A DNA stretch of 64,000 nt from contig OZ242195.1 in assembly GCA_965205975.1 (NCBI GenBank), positions 1,888,001 to 1,952,000 of the forward strand, given 5' to 3'. Source of the stretch: Candidatus Latescibacterota bacterium (GTDB lineage Bacteria > Latescibacterota > UBA2968). The position numbers and the translations under genes were made by a program. Shown here piece by piece: positions 56,315 through 64,000 of this stretch (the first letter of the stretch is position 1; every line of letters begins with the position of its first letter). The notes below the pieces were generated by a model, which saw nothing but the letters and a program-made list of their open reading frames with translations, searched no databases and was not told the DNA's origin.

Positions 56315-56343
56315 TTGACAGCCTATTTGCAATCTGTTATACT
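56315..56343 (+). promoter_or_regulatory. Strong sigma70 promoter (extended -10) for a leaderless hsdM transcript
   Basis: TTGACA-17bp-TATACT with TGn extension; only 6 nt separate the -10 box from the ATG at 56350; no RBS. Confidence 0.75.
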
Positions 56344-56349
56344 GTAAAT

Positions 56350-58185
56350 ATGACAAACATAACAGAAATACACGACATTTCGGCTGTTTTGCGCGCCATT
56401 CGCGCCCATCTTGACCTGACACAGGAAGAACTCGCGAATCGACTCGGCGTTGCATTCGCCACTGTCAACCGCTGGGAAGGTGGCGTAACTAAGCCTCAGA
56501 AGGCAGCGCGAGAGGCCATCGTCGCACTCGCAGACGAGGCGGGAATCGACATGGCGGAAGTTGCCTCAGAACCAGTCGAAGCCGCAGCACAAGTGACGAG
56601 ACGACGGCGCGTTTCCAAAGCTCCTTCCACGAAAACCATGGAACAGATGCTATGGGACGCGGCCTGCTCCATCCGTGGCGAAAAGGACGCGGCCAGATTC
56701 AAGGATTATCTACTCCCCCTCCTCTTTCTCAAACGCCTATCCGATGTCTTTGACGACGAGATCGAGCGTCTCGCAGAGGAATACGGCGACCGCGCAATAG
56801 CCATAGAGATCGCTGAGTCCGACCACAGCTTGCTACGATTCTATCTGCCGGCAGAAGCACGATGGAGTGTCATCAATGGGCGCGAAAGTTACGAATGGCC
56901 TGATAACCAGGGGCGAAGCACACGCCCGAAGGACATTGGCGAGCACTTGACAAGATCTGTCCGCGCTATCGTACGGCATAATCCCTCGCTCTCCGGCGTC
57001 ATTGACCTTGAGGATTTCGCCTCTGAGCGCAACGGAGAACGCGATATCAACCCGGCGAAACTCACCGAGGTTGTCGAGACCTTCTCCGATCCGCGCTACC
57101 GCCTGGGGCTTGCTGACGTTCAGCCCGATTTCCTCGGCCGCGCCTACGAGTTTCTCCTGCGAAAATTTGCCGAAGGCTCTGGCCAAAGCGCGGGTGAATT
57201 TTTCACCCCAACCGAAGTCGGCCTTCTAATGGCGCACATCATGCGCCCGAGGCCCGGCGAAGAATGCCACGACTATGCCTGCGGTTCAGCTGGCCTACTC
57301 GTTAAGCTCCAACTCGTCGCCCGCGAACTCGACCCTACAAGTCGCGTGCCGCTCAAACTCTATGGACAGGAGCTACAGGCCGAAAGCTATGCGGTCGCCA
57401 AAATGAACGCCATCATCCACGACATGGAAGCGGAGATCGAGCGCGGCGATACAATGATCAATCCGAAGTTCAAAACCGCAGACAGCAAAATCCGTACTTA
57501 TGACATCGTCGTCGCCAATCCAATGTGGAATCAACCATTCAACCCGGACATCTTTATCGACGATCCCTTCGACCGCTTCCGCACTCAGGGCGGCGTCACC
57601 ACCGGCAAAGGCGACTGGGCCTGGCTTCAGCACACACTCACATGCTTGAGCGAGCGTGGACGTGCGGCAGTGGTACTCGACACCGGCGCAGTGACGCGCG
57701 GATCTGGCTCCAGAAATGAGGACAGAGAACGCAACATCCGCAAGTGGTTCGTTGAACATGACTTGATTGACGGCATAATACTCCTACCGGACAACCTCTT
57801 CTACAACACCAGCACCGCTGGCGTGATCATCGTCCTCTCAAAGCGCAAGCCTGCCTCACGAAAGAACAAAATCGTGCTCCTCAACGCCAGCCAGCGCGTG
57901 CGTAAGGGCCGTCCGAAAAACTATATCCCGGAAGAAGACCTGCGCCCACTCGCAGCCGCCTATCTCAAAGGCGAACCAGTTGAAGGCGAGGTCGCAGTCA
58001 TCACGCGGGAGCAAGTAGAGGAAGCAGACTACAACCTCAGCCCGAGCCGGTGGGCAGGGCAGACGGACGCCTTTGACCACCGGCCTATCTCAGAGATTAT
58101 TGCAGATTTGAACAAACTGAATGAAGAAGCCCGTGAGATTGACGGGCATTTGGCAGATATACTCGCACAATTGCAAGAAAAATGA
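56350..58185 (+). CDS. hsdM: Type I R-M methyltransferase subunit with N-terminal XRE HTH
   Basis: '[21 protein letters not shown]' HTH; '[10 protein letters not shown]', '[11 protein letters not shown]', 'GEFFTP', motif I 'DYACGS', motif IV 'NPMW'. Confidence 0.92.
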
Positions 58186-58210: not shown

Positions 58211-58588
58211 ATGGGCGCAACACACGTCACAGTCAGGATTACAAACCCGGCGGATCCGGACAGGTTTTGGGAAGGGCTTTTTCTGGTGGATACAGGGGCA
58301 ACCGATTCCCTGGTGCCCAGACCTTACCTGGAAGCCATCGGCCTCAAACCCGAAGGAAAACGCGTGTATGAACTGGCCGACGGCAGCGAGATCGCAGTGG
58401 ATGTCGCCGTCGCCAAAATTGAGTTCATGGGCGAGTTCGTCGGGGGGACGATCATATTCGGCGAGGCCGACGCGGAGCCGTTGTTGGGCGTGACTGCGCT
58501 GGAATCCGTCGGTATAGAAGTAGATCCGTTGAATCAGCAGTTGAAGAGGTTGCCAGCCGTGCGGCTGAAAAGAATGGCGGATCTGTAA
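58211..58588 (+). CDS. Clan AA (retropepsin-like) aspartic protease, AF_0612-like
   Basis: 'FLVDTGA', 'LADG', 'LLGVTALE'; AAGGAG RBS; TAATG-coupled to hsdS. Confidence 0.85.
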   Translation: MGATHVTVRITNPADPDRFWEGLFLVDTGATDSLVPRPYLEAIGLKPEGKRVYELADGSEIAVDVAVAKIEFMGEFVGGTIIFGEADAEPLLGVTALESVGIEVDPLNQQLKRLPAVRLKRMADL

Positions 58589-59880
58589 TGAACGAAGCGT
58601 GGACCTGGCATCCCCTTGGAGAACTGTTCGAGATCGGCGCGGGAAAAAGCATGTCTGCCGCCGCCCGCAACGGTCCTGACAAGACACCATTCCTTCGAAC
58701 CTCAAATGTCTTTTGGGACCAGATTGACCTTTCTACTGTCGATGAGATGGCGATTCCCGAGCACGAGTTATCCAAAAAACTTCTGCAACCCGGCGATCTG
58801 CTGGTTTGCGAGGGAGGCGAGATTGGACGTGCGGCAATCTGGAATGGCGAAGTCAAAATAATGTCGTTCCAGAACCATTTACATCGACTACGGCCTATTG
58901 TTGAAGAGGTCGAGCCGCGCTTCTACGTGTATTTCCTACAATCCGCCTTTACCCAACTTGGCATCTTTGAGGGCGCGGGTAATAAAACGACGATACCAAA
59001 CCTGTCACGCAGTCGGTTAGCAGGACTTGAGGTACCGCAACCAAATATCAATGAGCAACTGGCAATAGTCGCCGCGCTTTCGCGGATCCGGGAAGCTATC
59101 AAAACACATGATCAGAGCGTCGCGCTTGCACAGGATTTGAAACGCACCGCGATGCAGATGCTCTTCACACGCGGTCTGCGAGGCGAAGTGCAAAAGGAAA
59201 CTGAAATCGGCTCGATGCCGGAGAGTTGGGAACTCATCCCCGTTGCGAATATAGCAACGGTAAAAGGTGGGAAACGGATGCCAAAAGGCGTTTCGCTAAC
59301 TGACGAGAATACGGGAAAGCCATATATTCGTGTGACCGACTTTCAGGACCATAGTGTGGCAGTAGATCAGGTGCTTTTCGTACCGAAGGGTTATGAAGAC
59401 GTGATTGCCCGCTATGTTATCTCTAGCGATGACATCTACATTTCAATTGCAGGAACAATTGGGCTTGTTGGGCAAGTTCCTGAAAGTCTCGATGGCGCCA
59501 ACTTGACAGAGAACGCTGCTAAAATCTGTTTGACCGATCCGAATGTCGATGCACGTTTCCTGATGTATGCCCTCTCTTCTCACGCCTGCCAGACTCAGAT
59601 TTTGGAGGCAACAGGGCGAAATGCACAGCCTAAATTGGCGTTAAATCGAATAGAACAAATAAAGTTACCGATTCCGAAAAATCTCAATGATCAACGAGAA
59701 GTCACTTCTATCCTCGACGCCATTGACCGCAAGATTGACCTGCATCAAAGAAAACGTGCTGTGCTTGACGACCTGTTCAAAGCACTGTTGCATAAGTTGA
59801 TGACGGGTGAGATACGAGTTGGAGATCTTAATTTATCAATAATTGGTAGCTCTCGGTCTCGGGACTGCCGACAGGAGTAA
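58588..59880 (+). CDS. hsdS: Type I R-M specificity subunit
   Basis: Two TRDs; 'EQLAIV', central 'LFTRGLRGE..KETEIG.MPESW', C-terminal 'KALLHKLMTGEIRV'. Confidence 0.92.
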   Translation: MNEAWTWHPLGELFEIGAGKSMSAAARNGPDKTPFLRTSNVFWDQIDLSTVDEMAIPEHELSKKLLQPGDLLVCEGGEIGRAAIWNGEVKIMSFQNHLHRLRPIVEEVEPRFYVYFLQSAFTQLGIFEGAGNKTTIPNLSRSRLAGLEVPQPNINEQLAIVAALSRIREAIKTHDQSVALAQDLKRTAMQMLFTRGLRGEVQKETEIGSMPESWELIPVANIATVKGGKRMPKGVSLTDENTGKPYIRVTDFQDHSVAVDQVLFVPKGYEDVIARYVISSDDIYISIAGTIGLVGQVPESLDGANLTENAAKICLTDPNVDARFLMYALSSHACQTQILEATGRNAQPKLALNRIEQIKLPIPKNLNDQREVTSILDAIDRKIDLHQRKRAVLDDLFKALLHKLMTGEIRVGDLNLSIIGSSRSRDCRQE

Positions 59881-59887
59881 ATTGAAT

Positions 59888-61060
59888 ATGGAAGCCACAG
59901 CACCTTTCGCGCTCCATATAGTCTGGCATCCAAACCATGACATAGGTAGAGTAGTCGCGAATCGACTATTTGAGCACTTCGGTGCTAAACACAATCAGAG
60001 GCTGGTGGGAGATACGGGCGTACGCGTAGTCTATCGCCAAGCCATTGCGCCAGATGCTCTGGTTCCTTTGCCAATCGACTGGCAGAGTGGGAATGTTACC
60101 GCCGTAGTGATTCTCGTCGATAATGAGTTGGCGAGTGACCCTGCGTGGACAGAGTATGCTCGTGAAATCGCAAGAGAAGCCGACATGAAGGGGTTTAGTG
60201 CTGGCATTTTTCCTGTAGTGATGGAATCAGGGATCCTTGATAACATTGACCTTACAGAGCAGGCACTACGCTGGGACAGTTGGGATGGGGAATATAGAGA
60301 ACGCGAACAACGGCTCCTCAGAGACCTCACGTACGAATTTATCAGGATGCTCAGGCATTATTTGACTCAGCTTCGACATCCGAATGAAGGCGTAGCTGAT
60401 CTCGAATCTTACTTACAGAACGTCCAAGTCTTTCTCAGTCACTCTAAGCACGATGACCAAGGAGAATCTATTGCCAGAGAAGTCCGCGATTGGCTCCACC
60501 ATAACAGTGCATTGGCAAGTTTCTTGGACATTCAAGACATACCAGCCGGGCTACCCTTCCGGGAAGTTTTACTGTATCATATTGAAAACAGTATTCTCGT
60601 GGTAGTGTACACGAACTCCTATTCGTCACGTGAATGGTGTCGGCGAGAGGTCATCGAGGGCAAGAAACAACAGGTCCCGATGATTGTTTTTGACTGCTTG
60701 CATGGCATCGATCCAAGAAGTATTCCTTATATGGGCAACGTACCATTCGTGCGGATGGACTCGGATCAAGGAGATCAGGTCGGGACGGTTATCGGATGCC
60801 TGCTTGACGAAGTTTTCTGGACCTACATCTGGTTCTGTAGCGTCGAACGCTTTAGGACAGAGCACCCCGATGTACTGTTCATAGCTAGGCCTCCCGAGCT
60901 AATCGCGCTGGCGACGCTACCGGATCACCAGAGTGAAGCCGGTTCAACAATCGTGTATCCAGATCCGCCATTGATTACTGACGAAGTTCAGTTATTTTTA
61001 AAGGTTGCGCCGAAGGTACGTACCTATACACTATCCGAATGGATGGAGGAAGTACTATGA
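59888..61060 (+). CDS. TIR-domain protein with an extra N-terminal alpha/beta domain
   Basis: 'VFLSHSKHD...FLD...YSSREWCRREV' TIR with the catalytic Glu; C-terminal 'RPPE..YPDPPL'. Confidence 0.85.
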   Translation: MEATAPFALHIVWHPNHDIGRVVANRLFEHFGAKHNQRLVGDTGVRVVYRQAIAPDALVPLPIDWQSGNVTAVVILVDNELASDPAWTEYAREIAREADMKGFSAGIFPVVMESGILDNIDLTEQALRWDSWDGEYREREQRLLRDLTYEFIRMLRHYLTQLRHPNEGVADLESYLQNVQVFLSHSKHDDQGESIAREVRDWLHHNSALASFLDIQDIPAGLPFREVLLYHIENSILVVVYTNSYSSREWCRREVIEGKKQQVPMIVFDCLHGIDPRSIPYMGNVPFVRMDSDQGDQVGTVIGCLLDEVFWTYIWFCSVERFRTEHPDVLFIARPPELIALATLPDHQSEAGSTIVYPDPPLITDEVQLFLKVAPKVRTYTLSEWMEEVL

Positions 61061-61923
61061 TACTCGATAAAATAAAAACAACATCCACAATTGCTATTTC
61101 TATATCCGAGAGTCCAGATATGGAAGTACTTGGGCTAAGTGAAAGGCATCTGCAAGATGCAGCGGCTAAAATCGCGCTACGTCTGCTATCTTCTGGAAGA
61201 AGCTTGGCTTATGGTGGAGATCTACGTACTAAAGGGTTTACAGATCTGTTATTTGAACTGGCCTTGCGCTATCGGGGACATCCGCATCACAATGGAATAA
61301 TTACTGTGACTAACTACTTAGCATGGCCCATTCACCTTAGCATGACGGCCGACGAACTCGAGAAATATGTCGCAGAATACCATGGAACCGCCCAACTCGT
61401 CCTCATTGGGGAGGATGGGAAGCGGCTGTCGATGGAAGACCGCAAGGCACTATCATCTCGTAAACCCGATGCTAGCGAGAGGTCAAACGGACTGACAGCT
61501 ATGCGACAGGTCATGTGCGAGGAAACAGATGCACGCATTTTGCTCGGCGGGCACGTAGAGGATTACAAAGGGCGGATGCCGGGTATCGCAGAAGAAGCGT
61601 TGCTGTCGCTTCAGGTCAACCAGCCGGTATTCTTAATAGGCGGTTTTGGCGGCTGTGCACGTGACATAGCGGAAACAGTCGGGCTTGTGGAGCCTTGGAC
61701 TGGCTCTCGCCAGACTTGGTCGAGCCGGGAGCGGTTCAAATCCTACGGTCCAGACAGCTTACACAACGGACTTTCCACTGAAGAAAATCAGCTACTCGTC
61801 CAGACGCCGTATATTGACCAGTCAATGAGCTTAGTCATGAAAGGTCTTCATAGGCTACGCAATAGTAAAACTAAAGATGACCTAAACCAAAAGGAAGGCA
61901 ACTATGCACAAGGTGTTTATTAG
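61057..61923 (+). CDS. SLOG-domain protein (cluster 2-like nucleotide-binding Rossmann fold)
   Basis: 'IAISISES', 'LAYGGDLR', 'LTAMR', 'ILLGG..YKGRMPGIAEEA', 'PVFLIGGFGG'; ATGA overlap with the TIR gene. Confidence 0.8.
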   Translation: MILDKIKTTSTIAISISESPDMEVLGLSERHLQDAAAKIALRLLSSGRSLAYGGDLRTKGFTDLLFELALRYRGHPHHNGIITVTNYLAWPIHLSMTADELEKYVAEYHGTAQLVLIGEDGKRLSMEDRKALSSRKPDASERSNGLTAMRQVMCEETDARILLGGHVEDYKGRMPGIAEEALLSLQVNQPVFLIGGFGGCARDIAETVGLVEPWTGSRQTWSSRERFKSYGPDSLHNGLSTEENQLLVQTPYIDQSMSLVMKGLHRLRNSKTKDDLNQKEGNYAQGVY

Positions 61924-62500
61924 CTATCACCACGAAAACGATCAGTATTACAAAAACGCCTTGGTCGAATTCGGCTACCAGCATTCGATATTCATCGATG
62001 TCTCAGTCGATACCGGAGACATCTCTGAGGATCTAGATGATCAGCGCATACGAGAGATAATCAGAGACGGATACTTGCGAGACTCTACGGTTACGATCGT
62101 CTTGGTGGGAACTGATACAAAACGCAGAAAACATGTGGACTGGGAGATATACTCCAGTATGTATAGCGGTGTTGTGAACAAAAAATCCGGAATTGTGGTT
62201 GTCAATCTACCTGGGACATCGGATCTATGTACGGTAGCACACGAAGGCGAAAAAGAAGCTCTCTATCCAGATATATCTTCGTGGACATCAATCTCTACTA
62301 GGGTGGAATACGAACAGCGGTATCCGTACATGCCAGATCGCATTATTGATAATCTACTAAATCCAAAGGCTAAAATATCTGTTGTTCCATGGAACAGAAT
62401 CAACGCGACAAGTCTTAAGTTCCTGGTTGATGCAGCCTTTAATGATCGTGGCCGTTGCGAGTATGACTTAAGCCGACGAATGAGACGACACAATTCGTGA
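61904..62500 (+). CDS. ThsB-like TIR protein (MTH538/DUF1863 type)
   Basis: 'KVFISYHH.ND', 'YLRDSTVTIVLVG..T..RKHVDWEI..S'. Confidence 0.85.
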   Translation: MHKVFISYHHENDQYYKNALVEFGYQHSIFIDVSVDTGDISEDLDDQRIREIIRDGYLRDSTVTIVLVGTDTKRRKHVDWEIYSSMYSGVVNKKSGIVVVNLPGTSDLCTVAHEGEKEALYPDISSWTSISTRVEYEQRYPYMPDRIIDNLLNPKAKISVVPWNRINATSLKFLVDAAFNDRGRCEYDLSRRMRRHNS

Positions 62501-62559
62501 TTTCGCTTGGTATAGAGTACCACCCTGCCTATCCCCGGTTATGGCTGAATATCCATAAA

Positions 62560-63151
62560 CAACGATGAAGGGGAAGAACTAAAATCGGGAGATGTAGGCA
62601 CTATCATCCACGTCCACCCGGATGAAGAAGCCCTTGTTGTGGAGTTCATGTCCCTTGATGGCGACACAGTGTCGCAGATTTTCGACAGTGAGAAGATTTC
62701 CGAGACAGCGTTGCGGATTTTATCCAATCCGTCAATAGGAAAGATGCGACAGACAGTGTCTGTTAAATCTACTGAACACGCTGAGATTTCGCAGACACTG
62801 TCTGCAAAATTGGCGAAACGATTCGCGCTTGGCTAGTCCCACTACGTCATCCTTCTGTCCATCGACAACCCCGAAGAACGCCGCTTCTACGAATACTTCA
62901 ACTACTTTGACCGCTATGTGAAAACCGAAGACGAACTTCCGACTATCGGCATCGTGCTCTGCACCCGTAAGAACGATGCACTGGTCGAACTGACCCTGTC
63001 GGAAGAAGCCAATATTTACGCGTCGAAGTACCAACTCTACCTGCCATCAAAGCAAGATCTCGTGACCCAGCTTGAGCGCATTCAGAGAGAGCTTAGAAAT
63101 GGAAAAATGATGGATAGCCCGACGCTCAGGATCTATGACAAGGCATCATAG
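62560..63151 (+). pseudogene. Chimeric relic: DUF4926 fragment fused to a degraded DUF1016 (YhcG/PDDEXK) gene
   Basis: 'LKSGDVGTIIHV..VVEF..DG.T' then 'LG*SHY..LL.I...ERRFYE' joined directly to 'YFDRYVK..PTIGIVLC..IYASKYQLYLP'. Confidence 0.7.
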
Positions 63152-63181: not shown

Positions 63182-63236
63182 GGGGGGCGTAATGGGGCGT
63201 AATGGGGCGCAATAGGGGCGCAATAGGGGCGCAATT
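63182..63236 (+). repeat. Five tandem GGGGCGYAAT(W) units upstream of hsdR
   Basis: GGGGCGTAAT x2, GGGGCGCAATA x2, GGGGCGCAATT. Confidence 0.85.
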
Positions 63237-63273: not shown

Positions 63274-64000
63274 ATGACCGACCTTAAAATCACAGAGGCT
63301 GGCACTGTCCAATTCCCCATGGTTCGCCACGCAGCCGAGATCGGTTGGACCGCGATCTCGCCCAGTGTTGCCAGACAGAGGCGCGGCGATGAAGCGGAGA
63401 TGCTATTTCGCGACGAACTCGAAGCAAAGCTCACCGACTTCAATCCGTGGATGTCTGCTGACACCATACGTCAGATCATTGAGCGGATAGAAGCAATACC
63501 ACCGACGATTGAGGGAAATCGTGAGATGCTCAATTGGCTACGCGGAGAGCGGCAATGGTATGATGAATCCGAGAACCGACAACGGCATGTCCAGTTCATC
63601 GATTTTGAGCATCCAGCCAACAATATTTTTCACGTCACATGGGAATGGAAGATCAAACCTCCATCCCGCAAGGGCAACCGAGCAGACGTAATGTTTGTCA
63701 TCAACGGCATACCAGTCGCCATTGTCGAACACAAGAACCCGAAGACCGCCAATGCCATTGAACGGGGTATCACCCAATTGCGACGCTACGAAATGGAGAC
63801 ACCCGAGTTGATGGGAATGGCGCAACTCTTCAACGTCACGCATCTCCTCGAATACTGGTACGGTGTCACCTGGAACACCTCGCGCCGATTCATGGCACGC
63901 TGGAAAGAACGCCCGGATGAAACCTATCGCTTCGCTGTACAATCCTTCTTTGAGCCAACTGATTTTCTACGCACGCTACGAGACTGGATACTTTTCTATG
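63274..64000 (+). CDS. hsdR: Type I R-M restriction subunit, 3'-truncated by the window edge
   Basis: Own translation: [16 protein letters not shown]...IDFEHPANN...[21 protein letters not shown]...QLRRYE (HsdR nuclease D..E-x-K and Q..Y motifs); absent from the ORF track because it has no stop in the window. Confidence 0.9.

What the first reader, a model, noticed from the sequence alone, without database searches (positions are those of the whole stretch)
59888..62500. TIR - stand-alone SLOG - ThsB-like TIR cassette nested inside a type I R-M operon: Thoeris-like system with no canonical effector
Seen: three translationally coupled genes (ATGA and 20-nt overlaps) between hsdS and hsdR. Both TIR domains keep the catalytic Glu (WCRRE, VDWEI), and the middle gene is a SLOG domain not fused to anything. 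Known: in type I Thoeris, ThsB TIR makes a cyclic-ADPR-type signal that binds the SLOG of ThsA and activates its SIR2 NADase; type II uses a TM-Macro effector. No SIR2, Macro, TM or caspase domain is visible here. Inference: the small TIR is the sensor/signal synthase, the free SLOG is the receptor, and the 390-aa TIR with its unexplained N-terminal domain is the effector NADase. The cassette would be co-expressed with R-M, possibly as a back-up or guard. TIR/SLOG-only operons have been reported as Thoeris variants, so the novelty may lie mainly in the split architecture and the R-M nesting.
Basis: partly seen in the sequence, partly recalled or inferred. Interest (0 to 1): 0.82.

Follow-up and report, generated by a model that had tools for sequence, protein, structure and literature searches.

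The report
Sister lineage of type III Thoeris
These three genes belong to a widespread, untested sister branch of the type III Thoeris anti-phage system, in which a small TIR enzyme likely makes an alarm nucleotide that a SLOG receptor would pass to a partner TIR enzyme predicted to destroy NAD+; the position inside a restriction-modification operon is a common cargo slot, not a defining feature.

Summary
Observation confirmed: three intact coupled genes (390-aa TIR, 288-aa SLOG cluster2, 198-aa ThsB), both catalytic Glu present. The SLOG is not truly free. Its gene follows an ORF1 homologue in 77 of 80 loci, the two are one polypeptide in 114 of the 120 best long homologues, and a complex model docks it on ORF1's N-terminal domain (0.83, best control 0.00). 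That domain is a Glu-less pseudo-TIR. A ThsB gene lies nearby in 40 of 41 loci. The pair is homologous to, and in the same gene order as, type III Thoeris ThcB4-ThcA (sister clades), but scores far below both family cut-offs and has a shorter C-terminal domain. R-M nesting is not conserved: 1 of 26 metagenome loci; 14 other operons with this hsdM lack the cassette, and those read through to hsdR carry other cargo. Best model (0.5, all steps inferred): ThsB signal, SLOG receptor, ORF1 TIR NADase. This scan earlier noted true type III cassettes on other DNA with the same proposed mechanism; no sequence look-alike of this lineage was on record. New variant of a known kind.

The parts
56315..56343 (+). 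Best sigma-70-like site (11 of 12, TG) ahead of hsdM; candidate promoter for the whole operon
   Evidence: total count of sites is at chance level (8 found, 7.2 expected), function not shown
56350..58185 (+). hsdM, type I methyltransferase with N-terminal HTH (context)
58211..58588 (+). Clan AA aspartic protease, usual passenger of this hsd operon family (context)
   Evidence: TIGR03698 E 8.5e-24; homologues start at the same Met
58588..59880 (+). hsdS (context)
59888..61060 (+). ORF1, 390 aa, three domains: pseudo-TIR, catalytic-type TIR, small C-terminal alpha/beta domain; sister of ThcB4; likely effector
59888..60382 (+). ORF1 residues 1-165: pseudo-TIR without the catalytic Glu; predicted SLOG-docking domain
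   Evidence: hhalign to the ORF1 TIR over 125 columns, P 2.6e-4, probability 42%; atlas neighbours TIR_2 at 0.91; interface residues 25-67
60413..60823 (+). ORF1 residues 176-312: TIR with E254 (codon 60647-60649)
   Evidence: E254 in 120 of 120 stand-alone and 109 of 109 fused homologues; SARM1 TIR Z 14.1, rmsd 2.7, 124 aligned
60863..61057 (+). ORF1 residues 326-390: small domain with conserved RPPE and YPDPPL..E motifs; second SLOG contact
   Evidence: no fold assignment obtained
61057..61923 (+). ORF2, 288 aa, SLOG cluster2 (PF18163); likely signal receptor
   Evidence: top structural match BcThsA SLOG with 3'cADPR, Z 14.2, rmsd 3.7, 184 aligned; R150/G176/E180 map on R371/G399/E403
61904..62500 (+). 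ORF3, 198 aa, ThsB-type TIR with E81 (codon 62144-62146); likely sensor and signal synthase
   Evidence: E81 in 33 of 33 neighbouring ThsB-like proteins aligned
62549..63148 (+). Gene remnants: DUF4926 fragment and YhcG PD-(D/E)xK C-terminal fragment
63274..64000 (+). hsdR start (981 aa, runs past the window; context)

Best explanation
The cassette is a ThsB-type TIR gene plus a split pseudo-TIR/TIR/SLOG protein, and it likely works as an anti-phage TIR-to-SLOG-to-TIR cascade: ORF3 would make an NAD-derived alarm nucleotide on infection, ORF2 would bind it while docked on ORF1, and ORF1's TIR would then be switched on to destroy NAD+. Shown: the genes, domains, conserved residues, linkage and fusions. 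Predicted: the ORF1-ORF2 complex, through the pseudo-TIR and the C-terminal domain, using the SLOG loop (23-28) that follows the first pocket strand. Inferred by analogy with type I Thoeris: signal, binding, activation, NAD+ loss, phage protection. ORF1+ORF2 would be a ThsA analogue with TIR in place of SIR2. The hsdS-hsdR interval only supplies a landing site and probably a promoter.
For: Fusion ORF1-SLOG in 114 of the 120 best long homologues, always in that order; adjacent in 77 of 80 dereplicated loci and on 11 of 11 plasmids. Complex score 0.83, best of 3 controls 0.00; mark reached by 116 of 157 solved complexes and 2 of 215 mismatched pairs; runs share at least 84% of contacts, partner pLDDT at least 84 (halves of a split protein tend to pass). 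E254 invariant in 229 of 229; R150, G176, E180 at 99-100%, mapping on the ligand residues R371, G399, E403 of BcThsA. ThsB-like gene within 4 kb in 40 of 41 loci. No SIR2, Macro or SLATT among 148 hand-picked neighbours, so ORF1 holds the only conserved candidate toxic site besides the SLOG pocket. One ORF1 homologue is fused to a cNMP-binding domain (P0407), like Pycsar TIR effectors (recalled).
Against: No activity or protection data. The sister type III system is reported, in a secondary source, to lack an abortive-infection phenotype and to depend hypothetically on a NucS-like domain (10.64898/2026.01.22.701046). A Glu-bearing TIR can make a signal as well as deplete NAD+, and the fold matches do not separate these (SARM1 Z 14.1 ties with IL-1RAcPb and MyD88 at 13.7). 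Some homologues carry patatin or metallophosphoesterase domains, which may be the true outputs. K388 of BcThsA is not kept in register (V167). No confident SLOG contact reaches the catalytic TIR, so activation needs an unmodelled oligomer step. A few SLOG homologues lack an upstream ORF1 (L078: about 1 kb without a hit).
Confidence: 0.5

Rival explanations
1. The SLOG protein is itself the effector enzyme (LOG-like nucleotide N-glycosidase); both TIRs make or amplify signals, and ORF1 scaffolds or gates the SLOG.
For: LOG-family hydrolases rank close behind ThsA in the fold search (Claviceps LOG Z 11.2); the review passages state that some SLOG clades cleave N-glycosidic bonds (PMC9503650); type III literature calls the SLOG protein the effector; SLOG-ThsB fusions occur in three relatives.
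Against: The invariant Arg/Glu are also the non-catalytic ligand contacts in ThsA; best match is the ThsA receptor; the dominant fusion is to ORF1, not ThsB.
Confidence: 0.2
2. ORF1+ORF2 is a relay or sensor module whose output is another domain: the ORF1 C-terminal domain (as proposed for type III), or an effector supplied in cis or trans (patatin, phosphoesterase, the Nmad2-MazG-UDG genes).
For: Patatin-ORF1-SLOG, SLOG-patatin and phosphoesterase-ORF1 fusions; MazG or Nmad2 genes within 4 kb in 15 of 41 loci; invariant residues in the C-terminal domain (P336, E337, P358, P360, E366).
Against: 26 of 41 loci, this one included, have neither MazG nor Nmad2; such fusions are rare (2 SLOG-patatin of the 120 best long hits); the C-terminal domain is about 65 aa against about 120 in ThcB4 and lies in the SLOG interface.
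Confidence: 0.18
3. The cassette is a dedicated guard or back-up of the type I R-M enzyme, triggered when R-M is inhibited (as PrrC with EcoprrI; recalled).
For: Nested with the same hsd family in L001, L002, L043, L100, and after hsdM-hsdS in L015; within or beside other type I hsd genes in G011, G017, G057. 5 of the 8 strong copies among 61 related genomes lie in or beside type I hsd genes.
Against: Only 1 of 26 well-flanked metagenome loci is so nested (2 more have weak hsdM-like hits). 14 other operons with the same hsdM lack the cassette; the 10 read through to hsdR carry different genes. G034, G048, G057 hold this hsd family and the cassette at separate places. The hsdS differs between nested copies.
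Confidence: 0.07
4. The cassette is not anti-phage or is a decaying passenger.
For: Gene debris follows it; no experiment exists for this lineage.
Against: All three frames and key residues are intact; neighbours across loci are TIR, integrase, CRISPR, dnd and hsd genes; the sister system is a named anti-phage system.
Confidence: 0.05

Closest known systems
Type III Thoeris (ThcA/ThsD SLOG + ThcB TIRs; van den Berg et al. 2024, not read; NCBIfam NF058525, NF058526)
   Same: Long TIR gene (about 380-390 aa) directly followed by a SLOG gene, with small TIR genes nearby. ORF1 family vs ThcB4: hhalign probability 98%, E 2e-13, residues 69-268; ORF2 family vs ThcA: 84%, E 7.9e-6. TIR cores are sister clades, support 99/93.
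   Different: 31 bits against a cut-off of 220, and 15 against 110. SLOG is 288 aa cluster2, not about 190-200 aa. C-terminal domain about half the size, homology to ThcB4's not shown. Often fused into one chain of about 690 aa; the 16 ThcB4 loci seen were all split.
Type I Thoeris (ThsB + ThsA SIR2-SLOG)
   Same: ThsB-type TIR; SLOG whose best structural match is BcThsA SLOG, with R371/G399/E403 equivalents kept.
   Different: No SIR2; a pseudo-TIR/TIR unit stands where SIR2 would; SLOG family cluster2, not STALD; K388 not kept, so the ligand may differ.
Pfam SLOG cluster2 (PF18163; Burroughs et al. 2015, recalled, not held)
   Same: ORF2 is a clear member (236 bits, cut-off 25.3); sources already label fused forms 'SLOG cluster2/TIR domain'.
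   Different: A domain family defined computationally; no experimental study was found in my searches.
TIR NADase effectors of Pycsar, CBASS and SPARTA
   Same: Ligand-gated TIR as likely toxic output; SPARTA TIR Z 13.5; cNMP-ORF1 fusion.
   Different: Signal would come from another TIR and be read by a SLOG through a pseudo-TIR.

Membership tests
Thoeris (general) | ThsB-type TIR with catalytic Glu next to a putative effector | tested here: met
Thoeris (general) | Phage-induced NAD-derived signal that activates the effector; phage protection | not testable with these tools
   needs LC-MS and plaque assays
Type I Thoeris | SIR2-SLOG effector ThsA | tested here: not met
   no SIR2 in the three proteins or in 148 neighbours
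Type I Thoeris | 3'cADPR pocket residues | tested here: inconclusive
   R371, G399, E403 kept by profile mapping; K388 not; S290 and L326 match S17 and L56 by eye only
Type II and IV Thoeris | TM-Macro or caspase effector | tested here: not met
   one caspase, on the opposite strand, among 148 neighbours
Type III Thoeris | SLOG-only protein with several TIR genes, long TIR before SLOG | tested here: met
Type III Thoeris | ThcB4 equivalog NF058526 above cut-off | tested here: not met
   31.3 bits vs 220; six fused homologues 22-54 bits
Type III Thoeris | ThcA equivalog NF058525 above cut-off | tested here: not met
   15.3 bits vs 110
Type III Thoeris | Homology of the core pair to ThcB4 and ThcA | tested here: met
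   tree outgroups were only ThsB and neighbouring TIRs, 131 columns, long branches
Type III Thoeris | NucS-like C-terminal domain in the long TIR protein | tested here: inconclusive
   profile score 3.1 vs shuffled maximum 6.05; domain shorter; not folded alone
Thoeris types V-XI | DUF2270, DUF6650, SLATT, CMP hydrolase, ion channel or hydrolase effector | tested here: not met
   Pfam scan against the text of 10.64898/2025.12.03.692087; the type IX effector was not named in the parts read
The 29 putative Thoeris types of Yirmiya et al. 2025 | Listed effector in Fig. 1C / Table S1 | not testable with these tools
   figure labels and supplement not visible
R-M-coupled guard systems (PrrC-like, recalled) | Obligate linkage to a type I R-M operon | tested here: not met

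The most novel reading that the evidence does not exclude
An undescribed Thoeris type, as widespread as named ones, that runs an all-TIR cascade: a SLOG receptor for a new ADPR-derived signal gates a TIR NADase through a pseudo-TIR adaptor. Because it lacks most of the C-terminal domain proposed as type III's nuclease, and comes as a natural single-chain fusion, it would settle what kills the phage in the type III clade.
Probability: 0.35. Interest if true: 0.75.

Novelty: new variant of a known kind. Interest (0 to 1): 0.52.

Why it matters
Type III Thoeris has no known signal or proven effector. This sister lineage is large (651 clusters at 50% identity with E up to 1e-30; SLOG cluster2 in 6 of 401 sampled genomes against 7 for ThcB4 and 2 for STALD) and is below the NCBIfam type III cut-offs; PADLOC has no model for ORF2. 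Its fused forms give a one-protein effector for biochemistry and structure, and point to a pseudo-TIR as the link between receptor and enzyme. The R-M nesting itself is ordinary.

Tried and rejected
Foldseek on whole ORF1 gave only misleading multi-domain hits; both VIA runs covered only residues about 175-314, so the N- and C-terminal domains have no structural match and were not folded alone. The ORF2 profile found no PDB relative by sequence. Homology of the ORF1 C-terminal domain to ThcB4's or to TIR: no signal. N-domain against ThcB4 N-domain alone: weak. A global profile alignment to ThsA SLOG mis-registered the first strand. Viral contigs: 1 locus only, so no sign of a mainly prophage system. 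Transcription: a 6430-nt contig from an RNA library spans hsdM to ORF3 of a related strain (X23), but contigs do not show transcription and no silent control was laid. Promoter and terminator counts are at chance level. PADLOC and NCBIfam name neither the fused protein nor the Nmad2-MazG-UDG genes. Literature: ten searches found no experimental paper on SLOG cluster2 cassettes; van den Berg 2024 and Burroughs 2015 are not held. Earlier scan notes: no sequence look-alikes.

Full report
Observation. Pfam calls ORF1 TIR_2, ORF2 SLOG cluster2 and ORF3 ThsB_TIR; PADLOC has weak ThsB-type hits for ORF1 and ORF3 and nothing for ORF2. The cassette is 48.1% G+C against 50.9% for the genome and 56.3% for hsdM. 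It starts 7 nt after hsdS, but 773 nt of DUF4926 and YhcG debris separate it from hsdR. The closest named relative with the cassette is a Candidatus Latescibacterota MAG (83% in ORF2); two sponge-metagenome runs that I laid hold close copies in pieces.

ORF1 and ORF2 are one unit. ORF2 has 2015 homologues among 4774 candidates of similar length, ORF1 1363 among 4024. A search for longer SLOG proteins gave 750 hits among 7997 scored; of the 120 listed, 114 carry an ORF1-like part before the SLOG, 108 nearly whole. On plasmids the same 11 of 72,556 records match both proteins; 3 of the 6 that I opened are annotated as one fused gene. From 96 loci I kept 80 after removing copies above 90% identity. 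ORF1 adjoins the SLOG in 77; the other three have 3, 256 and 531 nt of contig upstream, but a dropped near-copy, L078, has about 1 kb without an ORF1 hit, so exceptions exist. Fused and split forms mix in the tree. The complex model passed: 0.83 against a best control of 0.00; the mark was reached by 116 of 157 solved complexes and 2 of 215 mismatched pairs; runs share at least 84% of contacts; partner pLDDT at least 84. Halves of a split protein tend to pass, and my own alignments were used, so this supports binding and does not show it. Confident contacts are ORF1 5, 25-67 and 360-388 with ORF2 23-46, 64-77, 215-216 and 251-265; none lies in the catalytic TIR.

Domains. The ORF1 model (pLDDT 87.9) has a five-strand alpha/beta N-terminal domain. 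It aligns with ORF1's own TIR over 125 columns (P 2.6e-4, probability 42%), W87 on W250, with no Glu at the catalytic position; atlas features also point to TIR_2. I read it as a pseudo-TIR, with moderate support. E254 is present in 229 of 229 homologues. The ORF2 model (pLDDT 86.1) matches BcThsA SLOG best (Z 14.2). Through two ThsA proteins, their alignment to 6LHX and a profile match (probability 93.5%), R150, G176 and E180 fall on R371, G399 and E403, which contact 3'cADPR (10.1101/2022.05.07.491051, passages). K388 falls on V167.

Third gene and other neighbours. In 41 loci with 2 kb or more on both sides, a ThsB-like gene lies within 4 kb in 39 by script and in 40 with L003, which an overlap rule missed. 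The HMM was built from 33 of these neighbours, so the count is partly circular; 30 of the 33 had been called ThsB_TIR by Pfam. Position and strand of ThsB vary; in three related genomes it is fused to the SLOG. MazG or Nmad2 genes are near in 15 of 41. Among 148 neighbours picked by hand from the ORFs, Pfam found no SIR2, Macro or SLATT. Rare fusions add patatin, phosphoesterase or a cNMP-binding domain (20 proteins chosen for odd length).

R-M nesting. The cassette has strong matches in 8 of 61 related genomes (plus one weak hit); 5 of the 8 lie in or beside type I hsd genes of several families and at different positions (two flanking genes identified by eye only). The window's hsdM has orthologues in 16 of 61 genomes; only G000 and G049 have the cassette in that operon. 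The other 14 lack it; in the 10 read through to hsdR, the hsdM-hsdR gap is 2.8 to 11.2 kb with different genes. In 26 well-flanked metagenome loci one is nested and two have weak hsdM-like hits. Nesting is recurrent in this lineage but not required.

Relation to type III Thoeris. NCBIfam gives 31 of 220 bits for ThcB4 and 15 of 110 for ThcA. Earlier scan notes described the type III core as a three-domain TIR plus a SLOG, which led me to fetch true members: 7 above the cut-off in 401 genomes and 9 homologues from plasmids and viral contigs. They have the same gene order. Profiles match at 98% (ORF1 69-268) and 84% (ORF2). In a 71-row tree of TIR cores the ORF1 family (99/98) and ThcB4 (97/59) are sisters (99/93), with limited outgroups, few columns and long branches. 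The C-terminal domains could not be linked (3.1 vs shuffled maximum 6.05). So it works like the type III core but fails the family models.

Papers seen. 10.64898/2025.12.03.692087: parts 1-5 of 8 and term passages; it calls type III signalling uncharacterised and allows that some putative types use TIR as effector; its Fig. 1C labels and tables were not visible and may list this family. Passages only: PMC9503650, 10.1101/2024.10.24.620036, PMC13276650, 10.64898/2026.01.22.701046, 10.1101/2025.02.20.638879, 10.1101/2022.05.07.491051. Not seen: van den Berg 2024, Burroughs 2015. PrrC, Pycsar effector layout and LOG catalysis beyond one search are recalled.

Mechanism and verdict. Most likely (0.5) ORF3 makes the signal, ORF2 reads it while docked on the pseudo-TIR, and the ORF1 TIR depletes NAD+. 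Every functional step is inferred. The reported lack of abortive infection in type III and the patatin fusions weigh against it. Rivals: SLOG as enzyme (0.2), another output (0.18), R-M guard (0.07), no defence role (0.05).

Noticed in passing
L010, L021, L063, L069, L072, L084 and others: A recurring Nmad2 - MazG_C - UDG-like gene trio, usually with a ThsB-like TIR, sits beside the TIR-SLOG pair (MazG or Nmad2 in 15 of 41 loci); PADLOC and NCBIfam do not name it. Candidate unnamed defence module tied to modified nucleotides.
   Followed up: partly
window 58211-58588; L002, L127-L139: A clan AA aspartic protease gene sits between hsdM and hsdS in most operons of this hsd family, and HsdM carries an N-terminal HTH.
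   Followed up: no
L127-L139, hsdS-hsdR interval: Variable cargo slot with many unannotated genes of 300-2000 aa; a source of candidate defence genes.
   Followed up: partly
G000:C1:1872183-1873117 (about 16 kb before the window): A second ThsB-like gene, broken and next to a transposase-like gene, followed by a 148-aa hydrophobic ORF; looks like a disrupted Thoeris-type pair.
   Followed up: no
window 63184-63236: Five imperfect copies of a 10-11 bp G-rich unit just before hsdR, seen by eye.
   Followed up: no
P0454, P0244, P0246, L059, P0438, P0455, P0497, P0407: Fusions of the module with patatin, calcineurin-like phosphoesterase or cNMP-binding domains.
   Followed up: partly
L003 (Alphaproteobacteria MAG): The cassette lies between a dnd-like phosphorothioation gene set (by eye) and an hsdR.
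   Followed up: no
L110:13-1404: A protein with a SLOG cluster2 part lies directly upstream of a true ThcB4-ThcA pair, so both lineages can share a locus.
   Followed up: no
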